A stretch of DNA of 64,000 nt from Psilocybe cubensis (GCA_017499595.2 CM039008.1:2170001-2234000), one strand, 5' to 3'. Counted from the stretch's first letter, positions 39,932-51,759 are shown. Notes: a model not told the origin generated them from the letters alone. Program-made: numbers and translations.

Positions 39932-40174
39932 TGTTTGAAGTCCCCACTCTCTGGATATGACGTCTTTGACTACAACATAGATACATATATTATATCAACC
40001 CACCAAATTAGTGTCATTAATCTTATCTAACTGATGCAACCGCAACATGTCCATCATTGATCCACAATCAAACAACTTGTTTTAGTGGGCCACCGCGGAG
40101 CGTGGCATGACGAGTCTTTACGATTCAGCGTCACGCTTTGTAATAATATAATATATATATAATATAATATAAAT

Positions 40175-41149
40175 ATGTCCAACTTTGACGTGGATATCGG
40201 TGCAATGGACGAAGTGATATTCAGACTCCAAGGCATAGTTAGCGACAAGATGCTACCACCAATGGCAAAGCCTGCTTCGTACGTCCACTCCATTGAGGTG
40301 AATTAATTACAAATGAGGACTGTTACAGCCGCGACAGAACGGTCAAGCAACAACCATATTTACGTACCGCCATTGCTATCACGGGACTCGGAGACATTGT
40401 GTTCAATAAGGTGATGGAAAAGCTAGAAGAAGTTTTCCTCCGTTTTGCAAACAATTTTCCCGCGGACAGCGTCAGCGGCTATGACCCAGTTCTTCACAAA
40501 GACACGGGTTTCAATGTTTTCCATGCGCATAGCCAATATTTCACGAAGGTATCCGCATATCAAGACAAATCTGACAACATAGGTTTTCATCCCCTGGTCG
40601 ACCCTGATAACATGTTGGCGTCCATGGTAGGGGACAGTTTCATCCACGCAATCAATAACAAGGTACAGTTTCTTCGTCGGGAGATACTTCCTGACGGAAC
40701 AGCCAGGTATGTTTAGAAAATACCAACAACACATCACAACCAAACTAATATCATGTTGCAACAGATATTATTCTTATAATCCTGCCTCCATACGAATTGG
40801 AGACATTGTCGAGATCAGTGTTGCCTTTGTCGCATTTCCTGCCCAAGGAAACAAGTACAAATTTGTTGTTGCTCTTCGCGGAATACTTGTCTTGGACCAG
40901 GAGGCCAGAGAGGTAAGCAATGTTACATTGAACAGTCTCATAGCCATTCATAACTTCCAACAGAAAGCTGATATTCTCAGAATGCGGTCGCGCTATACTC
41001 CAGCGAAAAGACAGGTTGCTGTTTTGTGTAGGACAAAGAGGCAGCTGTACAAAGGTCAGATTGACATTGAAGACACGCAACAGAGGATGGCACGTATGCG
41101 CTTAAATGAGGACACAGTCCACAATAGCAATACTATGTCCCAAGATTAA
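40175..41149 (+). CDS. Element-borne hypothetical protein (agaricomycete 'FRLQGI...DPxxxL...GDIVE' type; possibly OB-fold)
   Basis: Four exons with GT-AG introns give EVIFRLQGIVSDKMLPP, AITGLG, YFT, VDPDNML, HAINNKVQF, PASIRIGDIVEISVAF and VALRGILVLD. May be 5'-truncated. Confidence 0.6.
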
Positions 41150-41292
41150 TACATATGTACATAGAAAGACAAGGATATCATAAATGTGCTGAACGAACAA
41201 TCAATCCATTTGCGTGAACATTGTAAATAACAAGGAATAATTTGTCAAGTCATTTTCATGACAGAAATTATCTGAAGGTGTTAGTTGGCACC

Positions 41293-41475
41293 CCATGGGA
41301 GAATCCTGCGTACACTGTACGCAGAATATTCCCACACTCGGCTGAATATCGGCGAGGAAGTCCGTGGGAGAATTCTGCGTACACTGTACGCAGAATATTC
41401 CCACACTCGGCTGAATATCGGGAGAGGTTGACCGTGGGAATATTCTGCGTACACTGTACACAGGATATTCCCACG
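41293..41475. repeat. Three tandem ~69-bp units, each containing a ~40-bp palindrome
   Basis: Unit core GTGGGAATATTCTGCGTAC-ACT-GTACGCAGAATATTCCCAC (consensus), starting near 41296, 41365 and 41435. Confidence 0.9.
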
Positions 41476-41555
41476 CTCATCCGCAAGTCAAACTTACAAA
41501 TTAAGACAAAAAGAATGAGGACGAGAACACAAGTTTATTTCGAACAAAAATTTGA

Positions 41556-42531
41556 CTAAGGATGGAAGAAATTACAAATATCCATTCCACAAGAGGCTTT
41601 GTGGTTGAGGGCAATGCAACCAAAAAATATCTGCCTTTCTGGATAGCAAATACAAAACAGTTGCATGTACACGGTCATCTTTTTGCCTACATTACAGGAA
41701 TTAAATTGACAAATACTAAAACTAAAGAGCACACACCTTATACCCCTTTCCCAGGATTTGATAGCTTTTTTGACACGCTTGTGTAATTGGTAAACATCTG
41801 CCGCTGTGTAGTGAAAATCTAATGCAATACCGCTGATGCGACGGACACCAAAATGCAAACAATCAAATTCATTGAGCAATAATGCCCACAAATTGGCTTC
41901 AACAAAGGAAGTCTGATTTGCTTTGGGTAAAAGAGGCAAAGAATAAACCCAACAATGCCTGTCGCCAACCCGTCTAATCCCAGGAGAGAACAACTCTGGA
42001 TAAGGATCGTAATCCAGCACAATGAGAACATGACCACGAGATGAACTATACCCAACATTTACATTGTCCCTGATAGACTGTATTCTGCTTTGGATATGGC
42101 GGTCCATTTTCAAAGTTTGCGATGGAATGGAAAAAACAAATTTCAAGCCATGGGAATGATATTTTGCAAGAAATTTTTGCGCGCGCTTGAGGTCGGCAGA
42201 AGGTTGCAACAGAGAGACTTGATGTCCAAAGGTAGCATTTGGATACAAGCTGTACACCTTCTCAAAGGTAACAAAATTCATGACGCTGGCTGCAGTAGAA
42301 CAAAATTGAAGTTAACATTGTTTTGACACATGACATTGGGGACATACTGCTATGATACCCCAAAATGCACTCTACCACCGATTGACAAGTCGTAATCAGT
42401 TGGACAAAAGAACCTTGGCACCATAGGTTAACAACCACTCCAGTAGTATTGTAATGTTGATGAAGAGGATGTTTATCTGTGCTCGACATACATGTCCATG
42501 TCACCCGGAATCCATATATTAGCACGATTGA
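41556..42531 (-). pseudogene. C-terminal half of a split nucleotidyltransferase-motif gene
   Basis: Reads NRANIWIPGDMDMYVEHR, then a stop/frameshift, then VQLITT..VVECILGYHS, MNFVTFEKVYSLYP, KY..HG and RRVGDRHCW. Joins in frame to 50153-50465 when the nested element is removed. Confidence 0.7.
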
Positions 42532-43132
42532 TTACAAAACTTTATGTAAGTAAAGCGAGTTCTTTTATCCCCACAACCCACTGTACAAAAATATGTCCTT
42601 GCCAATTGTCCCCATCAGTAAATCATTGATGCCATCAAAATTGCGTGATTAATACCGGTTTTTTACTTAACCGGTATGCTTGACTTAATAATCGGTTACT
42701 ATCATAGAATTTCTGTTAGTTTTTGTTCCTACCAAGGGGATATGGAAATTAAAATACTAGATATTAGCTAGGTAGATAGGTTAGCTGCCATATGGTAGAA
42801 AACAAAATTAGATACCATTACATTATGACTTTTTAATTGCAAGTTAAACATTTTGACACAGATAATCATTGCTCATAACCAAAAATTTTATAATAATGAC
42901 CTCATTCAACTGATTTAAGGCCATTAATTAGTCACAATCAATTACATACCAACTGTTTTGCATGCTTTATACACCTCTAACGGCAAGTAGAGGTAAATAG
43001 AATGCTTTATTGTTATCAAAAAAAATTTAGCATGAATGACTAGCAGACTGTGGTGGCATAGAATAAAAAATAATAAACATTATGTATCTAGCTATTATCT
43101 TTAATGCCACTTCAAATAACTTGTCATATTAA

Positions 43133-43485
43133 ACTTGTTGTGCTGTTCATACTGGCCATGAATTAATAAGCAGACTGTGGGAATAACTTGCATATAGTGT
43201 ATGCAAGTTATTCTCACGGTTGCCGCACTTTGCATTGAGCAACTTGAACTTCTCTGGTAATTCCTGATATATTACTGAGATGCATTGCATATACTTTAGG
43301 TAAAATACAAGTATTTTTGGCAATAATAATTATTTTCAGTCCTAGTTTAGATGATCTTATTATATTTTACTTGCTGTGGTGTTTGTACTGGCCGTGAATT
43401 AATAAGCAGGTCGTGGGAATATCCTGCGTACAGTGTGCGCAGGATATTCCCACGGTCACTACACTCAATTTGCATTGAGCACTGG
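43133..43485. repeat. Two diverged direct repeats (~236-bp spacing), each with the same palindrome family as 41293-41475
   Basis: ACTGGCC[A/G]TGAATTAATAAGCAG followed by GTGGGAATAACTTGCATA..TATGCAAGTTATTCTCAC (about 43178-43217) and GTGGGAATATCCTGCGTA..TGCGCAGGATATTCCCAC (about 43413-43453). Confidence 0.85.
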
Positions 43486-44102
43486 CCACTTTGGTCAAGA
43501 GATGGTCATTTTGAATAATGTTTTCCATGCATTGAATGTATTTTGGGGAAGAAATAATGCACTAACACTTGCAAATTATGCTTGAAATATGTTTCCACAC
43601 AGCCAATTGTGTTCACAGCAACATCAAACTATACCAAAAAGAAATATGCGCACCAAACAAATGTTTTTGCACACAATATTGTTTCACTCTTGATGCACTT
43701 TTCAAAAATAAGAAAATTATATTTATGGGAAATATGTCCCCACTTGGGCAGCCATACACATGAGCATTCTTCCATCAGTTTTCCATACGGGATTCTCCCA
43801 GACTCGACTCCAGTCTAGTTGGGTGGAATACACTTACTAATAGTATGTACATGTTGTATCCGAATACCTAGCCACCAAAAATGCCAAGAATTGTATTTGT
43901 TCCCAAATCAGTAAAACCCGGGTTGGGTATTCCACCTAACTAGACTGGTGGGGATTTACCGTAAAGCAGTGCGTGGATGTTTTAAACTCCGTCTACCCTT
44001 TTTCGGACACGCATCAGATGCGCATCAATGATTCATGTGCATACGCGTCAACGCGTCATCCCCTAATTACTGTTTAACTGGCCGTTTAGCCTCACGAAAA
44101 AC

Positions 44103-47100
44103 ATGTCGTACCCTACTCCCACCTCGCCGCGCAGGTCGCGACCCTATAACGATGAAAACTCAAGCTCGCCGTTGATGATTCGTACCCCCAACAATCCATT
44201 TCGAAGCCCGCTGACCGATCTGTCAAGCCAAACTAGCCCAAACTTCTCCACACCCGGTGTCAGCCACTTTTCTCAGCCCCTGCTGTACACGTTCGTTTCC
44301 ACGCCTGCCATTGCTACCCCAAAACCTCGAAAAAAGCGTCGTGTTGCTCAAAATGTCTCGCCGAACACTAGACGACGACTTACAGAAGATTGGCAAGAGC
44401 GAAATAGTGCTTCTGTGGAGATGCAAAAAGAGGAAGAGGATAGGGATAATCGGGCCAAAAAGACCCGAATGCTTGACGAGGCATTTAAATCGATACGAAA
44501 GGCGGGTTTCCCAACGTTTCGGCACTTCTTGGAGGACGCACTTACCGCTCACGACCCCTCTCAAGCATCACAAATATCTCAACTTGTCAAAAACCACGGG
44601 CCCGCCTTGTTTTCTTTAGGTCGGAAATTGCAGCCCGCCATCGTCGATGACTGGATTATTTCTTCACACCGAGAGCTTGTCAGCATGCAGTGTAAGGCAC
44701 TGGCAGAGCTATTTCAGCCGCCGCAACTGTCCAGAGTCACGGATACGCTTTCTCATTTCTCAATCAAGCAGTACCTTGCTGATGCGGAACGTGTAGCACC
44801 TTTAATATGTGACATTCTTCGACAAATTGGCTACCCGAACGGCGCTCGAGAGTCAAAATACAAGAACCGTGAACTGGTAAGTAAAATTCTAGCAACTATT
44901 CTTCGATATTCTACTCAATATACATGTATTCTAGATCATTGCAACCGCTCTGTGTATGCTTGCAAAGTCACGAAACGAGCATGCTACAGAGTTTCAAACA
45001 ACAATGGGCATGTACTTTCTAGCGTCTGGAACTCAAAGCTCTCTGTTTGCTGTTCTCAACCATGCGGGCATTTCATTATCGTATACTCAGGTGATTTTGA
45101 AGCTAAAGCAGCTATCTCAAGAGCGGCTCAAGCTTGCACAGACTATTGCTCGACTCCAAGCCTTTATGCTTATTTGGGACAATTTGAACTTTAGATTCAT
45201 TGTTGCTGAGCAGCGTCATGATGCAAAGTCGCATTTTGACAGTGGAACAACTGCTACAATGGTGCCATTATATGGTTTTAAACACGGCGAGCTTTCTTAT
45301 TCTTTAAAGCCTCCCCGTTTGCGGCATGTCTTAGAACTGGATATAAAAGCTGAAGACCTTTTACCGAGTGCCGAAGAAGCTCTTCGAGTTCAACAAGCGC
45401 AAATCTGGCACATTTCCGATATACTATATGATGCGTTTCCAGATCTACGAAAGCGTATAGCTAAGACTATTCCACCTTTTCCTTCCGTGCTGCAGATTCC
45501 ACTCCACAAAACTGAGCAATATCCGCTTCCAGCAATGCATATCGATGAATCAAGCCTCGACGGCACACTACAAGTCTTTAACTCCATTCTGAAGGACTCG
45601 CTAAAGCTGACCGAAGAGGAACTCAAAGCTCATGGACTGATCATTTGCGCCGGAGATCAGTTGTCGTTATCACTTCTTGACAAGGTATGTCGATGCTTAT
45701 GTACTACAAATATTATTGTTTACAATTACTTCTATCAAGGTGTCTGCAATCCGTCGAGATGATACAGACTTTATGGATAACATTGGCAAATATACGCTAG
45801 GTCAAGACGGCCTTCTTCATGTCAAGTTCTCGCACACGCGAATGGTTGCTAATGAGTACTGGGGTAAACCGAACTCAAAATCACCGTGGTCGCTATGGAG
45901 AATCAACACGCTTCTAGGGCGCAAGCCTGTCTGCGCTGGATGGACAGCAAAATCTCCTGCTCCGTTTCGGCCTATATGGGAGCTTATTTTGAATCTCACG
46001 CTGCCGGCTCATATTCTTGATGCGTTTCGCATCTTTTGTTCTGAAGAAACTGTTGAAGCGTGGGTGAAAAAGGTTGATCATCATGATACAATTGCTCTTG
46101 TTGCCCAAAAGATACATGACGAACTCTGTTCAGGCCACCGAGTGGCCCAGCTTCGTCAAGAGAGGGCTATCAAACGTGACGTACCTCTTGAAAACATTAT
46201 CTTGTTTAATCGTGATGCTTTGCACCTTCGACAACTCAAGTATGCGATCAAACAAGGTGATGTGGGTGCCGTTTTGGACCTTATTACTCATTTAATGCTC
46301 GCCTTTCGAGGAACGGGACATACACCTAAATATGCTGATGCATTATTTCACATTGTCATCAATTTAAAGCGGATGGATCCATTGCTTCGGTAAGACATTA
46401 TCCTTTCTATTTATGATTAGAATGCTAATGTTATAATTTAGACGTGCCTGGCTGTTTAACTGGCTTGCAAATCTGACCGGTAAACCCAATGGTTTCAAAG
46501 AGATGGATCTTCTTCAAGAACATTTAAATTTTTGGCTAAAAGTATGTTTAACAATCTTTTTATTCTAATTGGACTCATAAATTAGTATTACTAGGTAATA
46601 TACAGTGCCAAGGGTGTTAACCGAACGTGGGCATGGCTGAGCATGGTCTCCGTATGCATATTTGCGCTTCGAGACGTTATTCGCAATGTGCGCGAGGAGT
46701 TTTCAATTCCATTTAACAGCATACGTCATGCTATGCCATCAACATCAACAGACGTAAACACAATCCGCACCTATCTTCAGGCCCATCGACTTCAAGAATT
46801 CTGTCCAGCTAGGGAAAACAATGCCGCTGCAGTTGAAGCACGGGATCTCATGGTAATAGGTGCTCATTATGCTAACAAACCAAGTGCGTTTCGCAATTTC
46901 CGACATACAAAGTTCAAAACAAAAAATCATGGTAATGCTGGCGAGCCAGATTGCGTATCCGCTGATGAAGCAGAAGATGAAGAGGCCCAATGTTTGGGTA
47001 ATATTGACGTGGGAGAAGACCTTGAAACTGGGCTCGAAGACTTGCTTTTGGATGAAGAAGAATACCCAGAGGGTTTAGATGCGGAAAATGTTTTTGCTGC

Positions 47101-47140
47101 GGTTAATGAGATTATAAATGAAATGCGTAGTTTAGATTAA
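44103..47140 (+). CDS. Putative Academ-type DDE transposase (DUF6589-like), five exons
   Basis: Motifs IWDNLNF, PLPAMHIDESSLDGT, AGDQLS, GLLHVK, IKQGDVG, FRGTGHTPKYA and EMDLLQEHLN. The exons appear to splice into an intact frame. Confidence 0.8.
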
Positions 47141-47159
47141 GGTGAGTAACTATATATTT

Positions 47160-49431
47160 CTAACTACTATCGCTCATATTACCACTTTCATCGCTTTCAT
47201 AGATTGTATTCATATTAAATTCTGTTGCCACTGTACACCATATAAGTGGAACTTGAGGTAACGCATCCGAGAAAACGTGAGCGGTTTTTGGCTTTTTCCA
47301 TTTTAATGAATTTGTGCTGGTAGGCTGCTGTTGCTTGCGCTGCAAATGTTTGCGAGCTTCGATTGGCTGGTTTTGCTGATCAAGCACTTCGTAAATGACT
47401 TCTAACTGTTGTATAAGCATACGTCCAAGCTCATTTGGACCACCTGTTTCTTCATTATGCCCCCGGTTCCATCGCACGTGAGCACAAAGTGTTGTATAGT
47501 CACAAACCGATTCTAATCGATGACCGCAGGTTGAGATGGTGGCAATGGTTTTGTCGGAAAGAATCAAAGACCCAGAAAGGCTAGTAATACCTGGGTATAC
47601 CTTTCCAAAGAGGATGGTGTCGCGCCATTCCGTAAGTTTTTTTCGAATGTATGCAGCTTCTTCATCCGGAACCTTTTTCTTCTTTCCTCGCTTTAAACCC
47701 TTTACCAATGGTACGGATGATATTTGAGGTACAAGAAACAAATGTGGCTGACAGTTGTCACAACAGCGTACATTGTTTCCTGGTCGATATGTGCTTGTGA
47801 TTCCGTAAATTAAACCAACTCAAATATTATACTGTTAGTATATTATATTGTTCAAACATTTAACGCACACTCACGTTTCTTGGAATTTTGAAAAAATCTA
47901 TTCCAAATGATGCGCCGGCATAATTTGGTCTGTGCATAAAGCAAAAGTGCCCGCCGTTCATGAATGTTGGTTTCTTTACCAAAACGTTTCAGCCGTTTTG
48001 CAGGAGCTGTTGATTTTTCTTGACGTATCCCTTCTTCATCAACATCTTCCGTGACTTCATTATGCTCAATGGTCTCAGGTTCAGCTACTTCCAACTCGAA
48101 AATGGAATTAATTTCCGCAGGTGAATTGGATACATTTTCTTTCATCACGCTTTGCGGAATAATCATTATAGCTTCTCCCTGAGTATCCAAGTCACGGGCA
48201 GCTCTACCAGCCTCCTGGACAAATCCACAAAAGGTAAGTGAAAGCCCCCATACAATAACTCGGGAAATGTTTCGATAGTCGCATCCCTATATGTATAAAT
48301 GTAAGTAACCACTAATTAAATGGTACAAGAAAGAAATTTACCATTCCAAGTGCAGTAGTAGTAAACAAAATGCGAACCTTGCCTTTTCCGAGTAGAGATT
48401 CTAGCTCGCGCTTTTTTTTTCGCCTAGATAGGCATGATAAAAAGCAATGCAGCTTGGTATAATCCCTTGCTCGTTAGCCCAATCTCGAGCACGATCTGCA
48501 CATATTTCTGCTATATCTCGTTGATTACAGTATACCACTGAAACCAAAATGTCGTCAGGACAGGTTGCATTTTCAGGAATCAGAAAGCGAAGATCTGCTT
48601 TTGATTCATCTGAATGCTTCATAACCCGAACAGACAGAGCAACATTTGGTCTCTCATTAGTAACTGCAATTGTGCGCACCTCTTTTGTTAGACTAAGAGT
48701 GCTTTTAACGTTGTCAAGAATGTGATCTGGAAAGGTTGCTGATGCCACTACAATTGGTACATTGCGTGGAAGCCTGCCCCGAAGTATACCTAGTTGCTGA
48801 TACTCAGGACGGAAAGTACCTCCCCACACTGTGATGCAGTGTGCTTCATCAATGTTTACAGCACGTAGTGCATCAGTGAATGAAACCTTCATAAACACTT
48901 CACGGTGAAACTCTTGAGATACAATAATCTCAGGAGACACAATGACATGCCGAAACTTCAAGTTAACAATATCCTATTAATAATTAGAGTGTTATATTGA
49001 TTTAAATTAGACTTGTGCTTGAAATTTTACACATACCAAATACATTTGGACCTTGCCAACACGGATAGCAGTTTCTTGACATACTGCAATGGTGGGAATA
49101 GGACTACCATTGGCCTACATGACTCCTCAATTAGAGTTTATTAAGAGAAACACCTAAAAATTACCTGCTCTATCATCAAGGCTGACAATGGAGATACAGT
49201 CACAGATACTGTTGTCTCATCAAGCAGCAAGGGCAGAATAAAGCATATGGTTTTTCCACATCCCGTTCCAACATCAAGAATAAGATCATGGCCACACAAT
49301 ACCGTTTTTGCGGCATCAAGTTGCCACTGAAACGGGCGCCTATCAAGAACCTCAAGCGCCCTTTGAGCAAGAAGAGAGATATTAAAATCTTCCTCCTTGT
49401 ATATCTTCACTCTGGACTCGGGTGGGGACAT
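47160..49431 (-). CDS. RecQ-like superfamily 2 helicase of the transposon; apparent -1 frameshift in an A9 run at about 48412-48420
   Basis: Walker A GTGCGKT, VSPLSALM, IDEAHCI (DEAH), SAT, YCN, FYHA, TTALGMGCD, motif VI QEAGRAAR and Zn-like CRR...CCDNC. Confidence 0.85.
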
Positions 49432-50152
49432 GAAATTAGGACCACAAGAGTGGCCTATATTTTCGGGGTTCTTATAAATAAAACTTGTTAAATTTCAGGC
49501 TTCAAAGTATTCCAAAAGTACAGAAACGAGATTGAGGTGACTGGATCAATCTTGTTCCTCATCTTTGTATTGTGAATTACATGCGAATTTTGGGTGCTTT
49601 TATTCACAATATTTGAGCAGTAGACTTCCATTATATGCTATTTAATATTGGTTATACTTACACAGATTAGAACATATGTATTTGGGTAAACGATACAAAA
49701 GTTTTGCAAAGGTACGAACGCCAGGGGTTTTGATTCCCAAAATAGATAGACGGAGTTTAAAAAGTCCATGTACTGCCTCACGGTAAATCCCTTCCAGACG
49801 ATCTGGTACGAATATCATTGATGGGATACCCAATGCGGGTGCAACCCGTTTTCGGACAAGATCGGCTGGGGTCGAGACTATTTAGCAGGTATGAAAATTA
49901 TAATAGACAAGTTCTTCCTTACAATTAGGCCTTATAACCTGTGCAGCTATTTTTTGTGTCTGACACAACTAAGCTTGTAGTAGACCTAAGTCATAGTAAT
50001 TAATCATAACCTTGCCCAGTATCTGGCTGTGCATTCGAACATATTAATATATATTAACTATGTTATATAAATCTAGATTAAAAAATATTTTATACAATTG
50101 TGAGATGTAAAGTCTTGTCATGCCACACTTTGCGTTGGACCACTAAAACAAG

Positions 50153-50465
50153 TAAAATGCAAAACGGTGGAACCTGAAATAACCAGGCCAGTCTTGAACT
50201 GGAGAAGACGAAACAGCAAATGTTCATTGGGTTTGAAGATAGGAACAAATAAATTTTTGGGACAGAAGGCGCGGCGCATATAGCCCGAAATGCAGTTGTT
50301 TAGCTCCTTGCAAGTCCAAGAGAAACGGTAGAGGGTTTTCAGATCCATCTGATCCATGTACACATCGTCCATGGGAGCCGGAAAGACTCTAACAAATAAG
50401 TAATAACCAAATGAGATAAAACAGTGAACATACTGTTGGAAACGGGGGGATAACGCAGAAGCCAT
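50153..50465 (-). pseudogene. N-terminal half of the split gene (F-box-like start followed by ISGS)
   Basis: MDLKTLYRFSWTCKEL...FRLLQFKTGLVISGSTVLHF. The reading continues into the element end (TCFSG) exactly at the insertion point. Confidence 0.7.
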
Positions 50466-51759
50466 GGGTAAAACAGTGCGGAGAAAAGTGCATTGTCTAT
50501 ACTATGTCAATAAATATATTAACCGTAAGCCGATAGACGCCCGACGTAGGGGAAGAACAAATTGGTATGCATGAGAAACAATCATGAATCAGAAAATCAA
50601 ATTCAAATAGTACAGAACACCCAGAACCCAAGAACGCGTAATTATTTCTATTTGAACTCTGATTGATGAAGCTACCGATATCAAGGAACGTGTGTGCCTG
50701 CACAGTTCTATTTCCAACCTTTCAGACCCATAGTTCAAAGAGTGCATTTGTTCCATCTCTAAGTATTAGTACAATATATAAGCACGTTGGCTAGACAGTT
50801 CCACATGGTTTTAAAAATTAAACAACAACGCAAAAAAGTGAATTGAGTAGGACTATTGTTGTTGGGTATAATTAATTTTATAGAAACGCACATTCACATT
50901 GCGATCAAAACAAATCAAAAACAACCTTTAAAGTAACCAATGGTAAAAAGAAGTCGTAGAATGAATTGGAAAGGGGTTGCTTAGGGGGTCCGGTGACCGC
51001 TTAAGGAAAATACCGATAGCGGTAACGACATTGATCGCATCAATAATATTTTGATGGGGACAATTGGCGAGGACATTTTTGCTCGCTGGGTTGTGGGGAT
51101 AAAAGAACTCATCTTTACTTACGTAAAGACTCGTAACATACGTGTGCTGAAATCAAATAGTGTTATTAGGTTTTTGTCTCTTTTTACTCAAGAAACACTA
51201 CGACTTTGGTGAAAGAGATGATAAGCTGTGGCCATTTGCTATTATAGATATCTAATAGAGCAATGGAGTCAATGCAACGTTACTTGCCTTTCATACAGCT
51301 TCAGACAACTTCTCGTCGATTTTCAGGCAAATTGGCATGCCAACACCGAGGGCATTTGCCGGGTATTGCCCAGCGTCTCTGACCACACGCCGTTTCCCGC
51401 TGCCAGCAAGTGGTACTGTACAAATACCTTTTAATATGAAGACGAAGCTATCGGCAGTTTGTAATCTGAAATCTTAGTCAATTTATTCATCCTTCGTCTC
51501 GGAACTCAATGGTAGAACTCTGGGACAAAAGCTATTATTTTGTTGAAAGTCAGATAAGATAAATTCACACTTTGAGAGATATCTATAGAGATATACATTA
51601 CAATTTACATAACGTAACAGAGATGGTCGTATGTTAATTTCACATCAGGCTTTCCTGATGCAGTGATCGTAAGTATAAAGGGGGAATCTGGTAGCATGGA
51701 CATTTGATATACTATTAAATCTCAATCTCGTTCCTTCCCACTATTTTGAACCTCAGAAA

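What the first reader, a model, noticed from the sequence alone, without database searches (positions are those of the whole stretch)
41556..50465. A cargo gene split by a clean, TSD-free insertion reconstitutes a nucleotidyltransferase-type motif
Seen: removing 42532-50152 joins the minus strand as CAT TTT ATC AAT CGT, giving ...LVISGSTVLHFINRANIWIPGDMDMYVE in frame with no duplicated bases. Known: hG[GS]-x(n)-DhD followed by a later beta strand (here VQLI) is the signature of Pol-beta-superfamily nucleotidyltransferases. Inference: the outer element carries an F-box-like N-terminus fused to an NTase-like domain, an uncharacterised mobile enzyme with a possible RNA-tailing, signalling or conflict role. 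This copy is decayed, with a stop/frameshift after VEHR.
Basis: partly seen in the sequence, partly recalled or inferred. Interest (0 to 1): 0.75.

Follow-up and report, generated by a model that had tools for sequence, protein, structure and literature searches.

The report
Transposon-split F-box nucleotidyltransferase-like fungal gene
A dead copy of a mushroom gene that joins an F-box to a nucleotidyltransferase-like fold rides inside a duplication-free mobile element and was cut in two by a second element of the same kind; the gene family is large, fungal and undescribed.

Summary
Removing 42532-50152 restores the reading frame. An uninterrupted Psilocybe cubensis paralog (P0006) reads straight through the junction, and 39 raw reads of another strain carry the joined form. 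There is no target-site duplication, only one ambiguous base. This copy also has a private 119-nt frameshifting deletion after VEHR and CpG decay.

The gene is cargo. It lies in an 11,062-bp unit (40075-51136) whose empty site is seen in 36 reads of another strain, and the unit occurs in roughly 5-20 copies.

Outer and inner elements share asymmetric ends like those of Helitron2-type rolling-circle transposons. No RepHel gene was available to test this.

Most copies of the inner element lack its 6.1-kb DUF6589 and RecQ-like helicase module. DUF6589 folds like a DDE transposase.

The function of the F-box-NTase family is untested.

The parts
40075..51136 (-). Outer element: 11,062 bp including the nested insert, about 3.4 kb without it. 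The strand given is the Helitron2-style orientation, with the 5' end at 51136 and the 3' end at 40075.
   Evidence: Ends are shared with the inner element. An empty-site joint 40073->51135 is seen in 36 X16 reads from 25 starts. At 40075, 384 loose-end reads have only 0.39 agreement, which means many different flanks.
42532..50153 (+). Inner element, 7,621/7,622 bp (one A/T base is ambiguous), inserted in exon 2 of the cargo gene. The 5' end is at 42532 and the 3' end at 50153.
   Evidence: joint 42531->50153 in 39 X16 reads
51121..51136 (-). Outer element, 5'-terminal arm of the asymmetric inverted repeat
   Evidence: 14 of 16 bases complementary to 40108-40123
40108..40123 (-). Outer element, 3'-subterminal arm of the inverted repeat, 33 nt from the 3' terminus. 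The stretch between it and the terminus holds a GC-rich palindrome.
42532..42547 (+). Inner element, 5'-terminal arm of the asymmetric inverted repeat
   Evidence: 12 of 16 bases complementary to 50105-50120
50105..50120 (+). Inner element, 3'-subterminal arm of the inverted repeat, 33 nt from the 3' terminus
50434..50465 (-). Cargo gene exon 1 (MASALSPRFQ...), followed by a 45-nt GT..AG intron at 50433-50389
50153..50388 (-). Cargo gene exon 2, part before the insertion (F-box-like region up to ...SGSTVLHF)
42348..42531 (-). Cargo gene exon 2, part after the insertion (INRAN..DMDMYVEHR). A 119-nt deletion at 42475/42474 shifts the frame. The text then runs on to ...VQLI..GYHS. A 58-nt intron follows at 42347-42290.
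41737..42289 (-). Cargo gene exon 3 (SVMNFVTFEKVYSLYP... to ...KSWERGI), followed by a 50-nt intron at 41736-41687
41572..41686 (-). Cargo gene exon 4 with the stop codon
40175..41149 (+). Second cargo gene ('gene A', about 250-270 aa, no known family)
41293..41491 (.). Three tandem copies of a roughly 47-nt palindromic unit between the two cargo genes. Related units lie in the inner element at 43164-43220 and 43400-43458.
43802..49878 (.). 6,077-bp module that most copies of the inner element lack; they carry 19 other letters in its place.
   Evidence: Joint 43801->49879 is seen in 358 X16 reads and in contigs of word depth 336-606 in X1, X5 and X7. The interior has word depth 28-64.
44067..47140 (+). 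DUF6589 gene (P0156-like, 917 aa), read here as ORF pieces in different frames
47160..49494 (-). RecQ-like superfamily-2 helicase gene (ORF pieces)

Best explanation
The window comes from Psilocybe cubensis or a very close relative. It holds two nested mobile elements of one family that leave no target-site duplication.

The outer element is about 3.4 kb of its own DNA. It is non-autonomous and carries two complete genes with introns. One belongs to a large, unnamed fungal family. Its N-terminal F-box-like three-helix module is followed by a Pol-beta-type nucleotidyltransferase fold that keeps the GS turn and the DxD pair.

A second element with the same ends landed in exon 2 of that gene, between the GS helix and the DxD strand. 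The composite then multiplied to roughly 5-20 copies. The copy in this window later lost 119 nt, which shifts the frame, and it shows CpG-to-TpG decay. It is a pseudogene.

The ends have a 5'-terminal repeat arm whose inverted copy lies 33 nt from the 3' end, and a T at the junction. This is the layout reported for Helitron2-type rolling-circle transposons. I therefore infer mobilisation in trans by a RepHel protein encoded elsewhere, and capture of the genes as in other fungal Helitrons.

For intact copies (P0006 type) I infer an SCF ubiquitin-ligase adaptor. Its NTase-fold domain would bind, and probably transfer a nucleotide onto, its target.

Shown: the split, the deletion, the mobility, the fold and the residue conservation. 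Inferred: rolling-circle movement, Skp1 binding and catalysis.
For: Junction: paralog P0006 and 39 joined reads.

Mobility: the empty site of the whole unit is seen in 36 reads from 25 starts. Loose ends at 40075 have 0.39 agreement. Depth over 40187-43669 and 49862-51022 is about 5-20 times that of the single-copy interior. Gene A relatives comprise 11 P. cubensis proteins, with at least 7 distinct contig lengths listed. The P0005 cluster has 20 member sequences.

Shared ends: 47 nt at 85% identity and about 145 nt at 79%. Each end pattern occurs nowhere else in the window, with 0 matches expected by chance.

Asymmetric inverted repeat: 14/16 and 12/16 bases, at the same 33-nt offset in both elements. 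In 20,000 random trials, 5 reached 13/16 or more. Published Helitron2/FoHeli termini have a 12-16-bp repeat whose 3' copy lies 20-51 bp from the end, no duplication, and insertion next to T (PMC5148889, passages read).

Conservation in 60 aligned relatives: S82 58, G83 60, S84 58, D100 55, D102 59.

Sub-threshold Pfam hits concentrate on NTase families: NTP_transf_5 9/60, MdcG 4/60, Aminoglyc_resit 3/60, DUF2204 3/60.
Against: - No RepHel gene lies in the window, and the genome could not be searched.
- The terminal hairpins are not better than shuffled sequence (z -1.9, 0.1, -0.8, 0.8).
- The ends are not the canonical 5'-TC / 3'-CTRR, and only two insertion sites were seen.
- hhalign of the family profile against 27 bacterial class II CCA/PAP heads gave probability 0.2.
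- P0006 has no Pfam hit even at E<=10.
- No conserved third carboxylate was identified: Q173 in 54/60; position 164 is N 22, D 18, T 10, E 3.
- The best Foldseek E-value, 1.6e-3, is above the tool's 0.001 line.
- The only transposase-like gene inside an element with these ends is a DDE-type one.
Confidence: 0.7

Rival explanations
1. The 7.6-kb inner element is the autonomous member of a new duplication-free transposon class. It would be moved by its own DUF6589 (DDE-fold) protein together with the RecQ-like helicase. The 3.4-kb outer element and the short inner copies would be its non-autonomous derivatives.
For: DUF6589 and RecQ are the only transposition-type genes found inside an element with these ends. 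The short form looks like an internal-deletion derivative, with 19 replacing letters rather than a simple empty site.
Against: DDE transposases as a rule need terminal inverted repeats and leave duplications (established knowledge). Helicase-encoding Academ elements leave 9-10 bp duplications (PMC10045372, passage read). Here two of two insertions have none. The 6.1-kb module has its own long imperfect inverted repeats at 43923-44007 and 49735-49833, which suggests a separate unit. In X16 part of the module has zero depth while the ends remain multi-copy.
Confidence: 0.2
2. The NTase-fold domain is a non-catalytic binding module (pseudoenzyme) that serves only as the substrate-recognition part of an F-box protein.
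For: No conserved third acidic residue was found, and Gln is kept in 54/60 at the VQLI strand. No curated NTase family is reached. No profile similarity to CCA enzymes was found.
Against: G83 is kept in 60/60, S82 and S84 in 58/60, D100 in 55/60 and D102 in 59/60 at about 20-40% pairwise identity. This pattern fits retained metal and NTP chemistry. The aligned bacterial class II CCA heads also keep only the two Asp of DxD at 90% or more in that region.
Confidence: 0.35
3. The repeated unit is not a transposon but a segmental duplication, or the insertion is an assembly artefact.
For: Repeats are hard to assemble, and no single contig of X1, X5 or X7 spans the whole stretch.
Against: Precise joints are seen at both pairs of ends in raw reads of an independent strain. 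Many different flanks are seen at 40075. Contigs from three further runs bridge the inner/outer boundary at 50153. Relatives of gene A show at least 7 distinct contig lengths.
Confidence: 0.03

Closest known systems
Class II CCA-adding / A-adding enzymes and bacterial poly(A) polymerase, head domain (PDB 3wfo, 4wby, 3aql, 3h37, 1miv, 9kma)
   Different: No profile-level sequence similarity. The family has S-G-S instead of GGxVRD and H-S-T-x-V-M-N where I recall RRDxTxNA in CCA enzymes. It has an N-terminal F-box-like module and no tRNA-binding body and tail region.
Minimal and other Pol-beta-superfamily NTases (ANT(2''), LnuA, TENT5/FAM46, MenT toxins, NTP_transf_5, MdcG, DUF2204)
   Different: All these matches are below curated thresholds, and none of these families carries an F-box.
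F-box proteins (SCF substrate adaptors)
   Same: Three-helix N-terminal module. Pfam F-box or F-box-like matched in 9/60 at E<=0.01. Superposes on Skp1-bound F-boxes.
   Different: P0006 itself gives no Pfam F-box hit. Two literature searches found no paper that describes an NTase fold as the partner domain.
Helitron2-type fungal Helitrons (FoHeli of Fusarium, PMC5148889) and gene-carrying Helitrons of Pleurotus (HELPO, PMC4289320)
   Same: No duplication. An asymmetric terminal inverted repeat whose 3' copy lies tens of bases from the end. T at the junction; the inner site TGAT^A fits the TNAT^A preference reported for FoHeli1/2. Non-autonomous copies and whole captured genes.
   Different: Different terminal sequences, hairpins not significant here, and no RepHel seen.
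AcademH (helicase-encoding Academ DNA transposons; Kojima 2020, not held here: only citations and one passage in PMC10045372 and PMC10799480 were seen)
   Different: I found no 9-10-bp duplication at its inverted repeats. Similarity to Academ transposases could not be tested because no Repbase was available.

Membership tests
Pol-beta-superfamily nucleotidyltransferase fold | hG[GS] at the turn between the first core strand and the following helix | tested here: met
   I81 54/60, S82 58/60, G83 60/60, S84 58/60. The model has strand 80-82 followed by helix 84-91.
Pol-beta-superfamily nucleotidyltransferase fold | [DE]h[DE] at the start of the next strand | tested here: met
   D100 55/60, L101 58/60, D102 59/60; strand 100-106.
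Pol-beta-superfamily nucleotidyltransferase fold | third acidic residue on a later strand | tested here: inconclusive
   The VQLI strand has Q173 in 54/60. Position 164 on the neighbouring strand is N 22, D 18, T 10, E 3. No residue-level superposition was available.
Pol-beta-superfamily nucleotidyltransferase fold | overall fold similarity to solved NTases | tested here: met
   [not shown]
Pol-beta-superfamily nucleotidyltransferase fold | match to a curated NTase sequence family | tested here: not met
   P0006 has no Pfam family at E<=10. Relatives give only sub-threshold hits, best NTP_transf_5 at E 0.0076.
Class II CCA-adding enzyme / PolyA_pol family | sequence-profile homology of the head domain | tested here: not met
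   hhalign of A3 (60 sequences) against A5 (27 bacterial heads taken from 27 of 115 loci) gave probability 0.2 and E 0.38.
F-box | match to the F-box profiles | tested here: inconclusive
   9/60 relatives at E<=0.01; 25/60 (F-box) and 19/60 (F-box-like) at E<=10; none for P0006 itself. The PDB profile hit to the KDM2B F-box has E 0.28.
F-box | three-helix fold like Skp1-bound F-boxes | tested here: met
   [not shown]
F-box | binding to Skp1 | not testable with these tools
   No Skp1 of this organism was at hand, and the complex tool takes references for bacteria, archaea and phages only.
Helitron2-type rolling-circle transposon | no target-site duplication | tested here: met
   2 of 2 insertions. 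The inner one has 1 ambiguous base. The outer one has 3 ambiguous bases (AAC), which the inner site does not share.
Helitron2-type rolling-circle transposon | asymmetric terminal inverted repeat, with the 3' copy tens of bases from the end | tested here: met
   14/16 and 12/16 bases, both 33 nt from the 3' end. 5 of 20,000 random trials reached 13/16 or more. Compared with the passages of PMC5148889.
Helitron2-type rolling-circle transposon | hairpins at the termini | tested here: inconclusive
   Palindromes are present, but the folding energies are not better than shuffles (z -1.92, 0.13, -0.83, 0.76).
Helitron2-type rolling-circle transposon | RepHel transposase in autonomous copies | not testable with these tools
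   None among 56 window ORF pieces scanned. No genome is held for the window.
Canonical Helitron (Helitron1) | 5'-TC, 3'-CTRR, insertion in A^T | tested here: not met
   The ends read TTAC...CAAGT, or CT...GTAA on the other strand. Only one of two sites can be read as A^T.
AcademH (for the 6.1-kb module only) | DDE transposase plus superfamily-2 helicase | tested here: met
   [not shown]
AcademH (for the 6.1-kb module only) | 9-10-bp target-site duplication | tested here: inconclusive
   No duplication was seen next to either candidate pair of repeat ends (43800/49879 and about 43917/49840), but the true ends are not certain.

The most novel reading that the evidence does not exclude
The F-box-NTase family would be an undescribed fungal system in which one polypeptide couples nucleotidyl transfer (or nucleotide or RNA-end sensing) to SCF ubiquitin ligation. 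Such a conflict-type or surveillance module would have expanded across Basidiomycota and Ascomycota. In Psilocybe it has been picked up and amplified by Helitron2-like elements, so the transposon spreads it.
Probability: 0.15. Interest if true: 0.75.

Novelty: new variant of a known kind. Interest (0 to 1): 0.5.

Why it matters
If intact members are active, this would be a large family of fungal enzymes with no annotation: 1022 representatives at 50% clustering and no Pfam model. It would link two well-known machineries, SCF ubiquitin ligases and Pol-beta-type nucleotidyltransferases, in an arrangement that two literature searches did not turn up.

The locus is also a clean, dated example of nested insertion, whole-gene cargo and strain-level presence/absence for a duplication-free element family in an agaric. 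It gives exact termini with which the rest of the family, and its transposase, can be found.

Separately, the fold result gives DUF6589 a likely identity as a DDE transposase.

Tried and rejected
- **Whole-genome search:** impossible, because no genome is held.
- **RNA evidence:** no RNA holder listed.
- **Earlier scan notes:** nothing found by place, sequence or words.
- **AcademH paper:** not held.
- **Taxon names of relatives:** The taxonomic range therefore rests on Atlas cluster labels only.
- **Profile search of PDB sequences with the family:** no NTase hit; 2 weak hits, one of them an F-box.
- **hhalign against class II CCA heads:** negative.
- **Terminal hairpins as Helitron evidence:** not significant.
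- **Canonical Helitron ends:** not present.
- **3-bp duplication (AAC) at the outer element:** rejected, because the inner insertion has no such repeat and the shared AC.../...AA bases belong to the element.
- **The 6.1-kb module as a simple insertion into the short form:** not supported, because the short form has 19 other letters there and no duplication is visible. The opposite reading, the short form as a deletion derivative, is also unproven.
- **Extra domains in 20 longer relatives:** 1 of 20 has PXA, probably a merged gene model; 19 have none.
- **Gene A:** no Pfam family, only unnamed Basidiomycota look-alike clusters.
- **Complex prediction with Skp1:** not attempted, for lack of a usable Skp1.
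Full report
**Where the window comes from.** The best relatives of the C-terminal half of the gene are four Psilocybe cubensis proteins at 75-99% identity (4 proteins with E<=0.001 among 140 candidates). The DUF6589 ORF is 100% identical to another P. cubensis protein. The rest of the window holds ordinary fungal genes: lysophospholipase, P450, Nrap, GINS Psf1, ThiF and GMC oxidoreductase. These gave Pfam hits in 12 of 43 ORF pieces, none of them a transposase.

**The observation.**
- On the minus strand an ORF runs from 50465 to 50154 and ends in ...GLVISGSTVLHF. It resumes at 42531 with INRANIWIPGDMDMYVEHR followed by a stop.
- P0006 is a 384-aa P. cubensis paralog. It reads LVISGSTVLHFINRANTWIPGDMDMYVEHRYALPV... 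with no break. tblastn places its residues 1-89 and 90-108 on either side of 42532-50153.
- Raw reads of another strain (X16) contain the joined form: joint 42531->50153, 7621 bases skipped, 39 reads from 28 starts, one base ambiguous.
- The decay after VEHR is a deletion of P0006 residues 109-148 less one base (119 nt). At 42474, 369 and 373 reads of X16 continue into other sequence with 0.98 agreement, so nearly all other copies keep that segment.
- The annotated protein P0004 (99% identity) starts just after this frameshift.
- The gene has three short GT..AG introns, at 50433-50389, 42347-42290 and 41736-41687. I read these against P0004 and P0006.

**The protein.**
- An exhaustive HMMER search with P0006 found 1022 representatives at E<=1e-3, 355 at E<=1e-10 and 12 at E<=1e-30.
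- I aligned 60 of the 150 listed representatives, chosen for one matched stretch and similar length, so the set is not random.
- P0006 has no Pfam family even at E<=10.
- Among the 60, F-box or F-box-like profiles match 9 at E<=0.01. At E<=10 they match 25 and 19. Also at E<=10, NTP_transf_5 matches 9, MdcG 4, Aminoglyc_resit 3 and DUF2204 3, all below threshold.
- The AlphaFold model built on this alignment has mean pLDDT 77.7 and pTM 0.79, and is confident over residues 10-250.
- Foldseek's top rows are all class II CCA-adding enzymes, with best E 1.6e-3, just above the tool's 0.001 line.
- The motif positions sit where the fold demands. S82-G83-S84 (58, 60 and 58 of 60) lie between strand 80-82 and helix 84-91. 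D100 and D102 (55 and 59 of 60) open strand 100-106.
- Results against: no conserved third acid was found. Q173 on the VQLI strand is kept in 54/60, and position 164 is N 22, D 18, T 10, E 3.
- Also against: a profile-profile comparison with 27 bacterial class II CCA/PAP heads gave probability 0.2. The heads came from 27 of 115 loci fetched with a recalled motif.
- The domain is thus an NTase fold by structure and motif. It is not a demonstrable member of the CCA family or of any curated NTase family.
- Atlas look-alikes are unnamed clusters of Basidiomycota and Ascomycota (318, 111 and 214 members). One lead points to Gad2-labelled proteins of giant viruses at 0.91.
- Two literature searches found no paper that describes an F-box fused to an NTase fold in fungi. 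each returned one paper, and I saw only the listings.

**The gene is cargo.**
- The sequence that starts the insert on the minus strand at 50153 recurs on the plus strand at 40075 (47 nt, 85% identity).
- The sequence that ends the insert at 42532 recurs, inverted, ending at 51136 (about 145 nt, 79% identity). The 5' pattern occurs only at these two places in the window, and the stricter 3' pattern matched only the outer copy. For both, 0 matches were expected by chance.
- X16 reads join 40073 to 51135, skipping 11,061 bases (36 reads, 25 starts, 3 ambiguous bases). This is the empty site of the whole unit.
- 384 reads leave the unit at 40075 into sequences that agree only 0.39, which means many genomic flanks.
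- Contig word depth over the unit is 234-650, against 28-64 for the single-copy interior. Read depth in X16 is about 700, against joints of single-copy size.
- The second gene of the unit (40175-41149, plus strand) has 11 P. cubensis relatives at 80-98% identity, with at least 7 distinct contig lengths listed (11 of 20 candidates).
- I estimate 5-20 copies.

**Most copies are already split.**
- The strongest joint is 43801->49879 with 19 other letters between the two sides. It is seen in 358 X16 reads and in contigs of depth 336-606 in X1, X5 and X7.
- One X1 contig runs from 43438 over that joint and across the 50153 boundary to 50827.
- So the usual unit is the outer element plus a roughly 1.56-kb inner element sitting at the same place in the gene.
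- P0005 (cluster of 20 member sequences) begins with residues that tblastn places 7 nt inside the insert's end. This fits the same picture.
- Uninterrupted copies are about as frequent as a single-copy joint (39 reads).

**What kind of element.**
- Read from 51136 to 40075 (outer) and from 42532 to 50153 (inner), each element starts with a terminal stretch of about 16 nt. The inverted copy of that stretch lies 33 nt before the 3' end: 14/16 and 12/16 bases. In 20,000 random trials, 5 reached 13/16 or more.
- The tail between the repeat and the 3' end holds a GC-rich palindrome. There is a T at the junction, and the inner site reads TGAT^A.
- Passages of PMC5148889 describe Helitron2-type fungal Helitrons in these terms: an asymmetric terminal inverted repeat of 12-16 bp, the 3' copy 20-51 bp from the end, hairpins at one or both ends, no duplication, and FoHeli1/2 inserting at TNAT^A.
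- Passages of PMC4289320 report whole captured genes in Pleurotus Helitrons.
- Against: the hairpins fold no better than shuffles. The ends are not TC...CTRR. Only two sites are known. No RepHel was seen, and the genome could not be searched.
- I therefore rate the Helitron2-like reading at about 0.55, within an overall confidence of 0.7 for the whole account.

**The 6.1-kb module.**
- DUF6589 (P0156, 917 aa) was modelled on 27 relatives, with pLDDT 75.7.
- Invariant WDN (D340), GDQ (G498 and D499 nearly invariant, 90% or more) and an acidic E745/D747 stretch fit a DDE triad. This assignment is my inference.
- The neighbouring gene is RecQ-like (E 7.5e-14 to 4q47).
- A DDE protein paired with a helicase recalls AcademH, which is said to leave 9-10-bp duplications (PMC10045372, passage). 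I saw none.
- It stays open whether the module entered a short element or the short element is its deletion derivative.

**Decay.** Of the 32 best-supported differences between this copy and the other copies, 29 are positions where the window has T or A and the others have C or G. Of these, 22 lie in CpG in the other copies.

**Verdict.** Function and transposition mechanism are inferred.

Noticed in passing
[not shown]
   Followed up: partly
window 43802-49878: The DUF6589 and RecQ-like gene pair is absent from most copies of the inner element, which carry 19 other letters instead. In strain X16, 45605-47539 has zero read depth, and a joint 45416->47900 indicates a further deletion derivative. 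Long imperfect inverted repeats lie at 43923-44007 and 49735-49833, and no target-site duplication was found.
   Followed up: partly
window 40612-50882 (32 listed positions): This copy differs from its siblings mainly by C-to-T and G-to-A changes at CpG (22 of 29 transitions). That is the pattern expected from deamination of methylated cytosines in silenced repeats.
   Followed up: partly
window 41293-41491; 43164-43220; 43400-43458: A roughly 47-nt near-perfect palindrome occurs three times in tandem (period 69-70) between the two cargo genes and twice in the inner element. Its role is unknown.
   Followed up: no
window 40175-41149 (+): The second cargo gene ('gene A', about 250-270 aa) has 11 P. 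cubensis relatives and unnamed Basidiomycota look-alike clusters. It has no Pfam family, only a weak CDC48_N-like hint (E 0.06).
   Followed up: partly
window 40073/51135: The whole 11-kb unit is absent at this locus in reads of another strain (36 empty-site reads). The insertion is therefore polymorphic within the species and presumably recent.
   Followed up: partly
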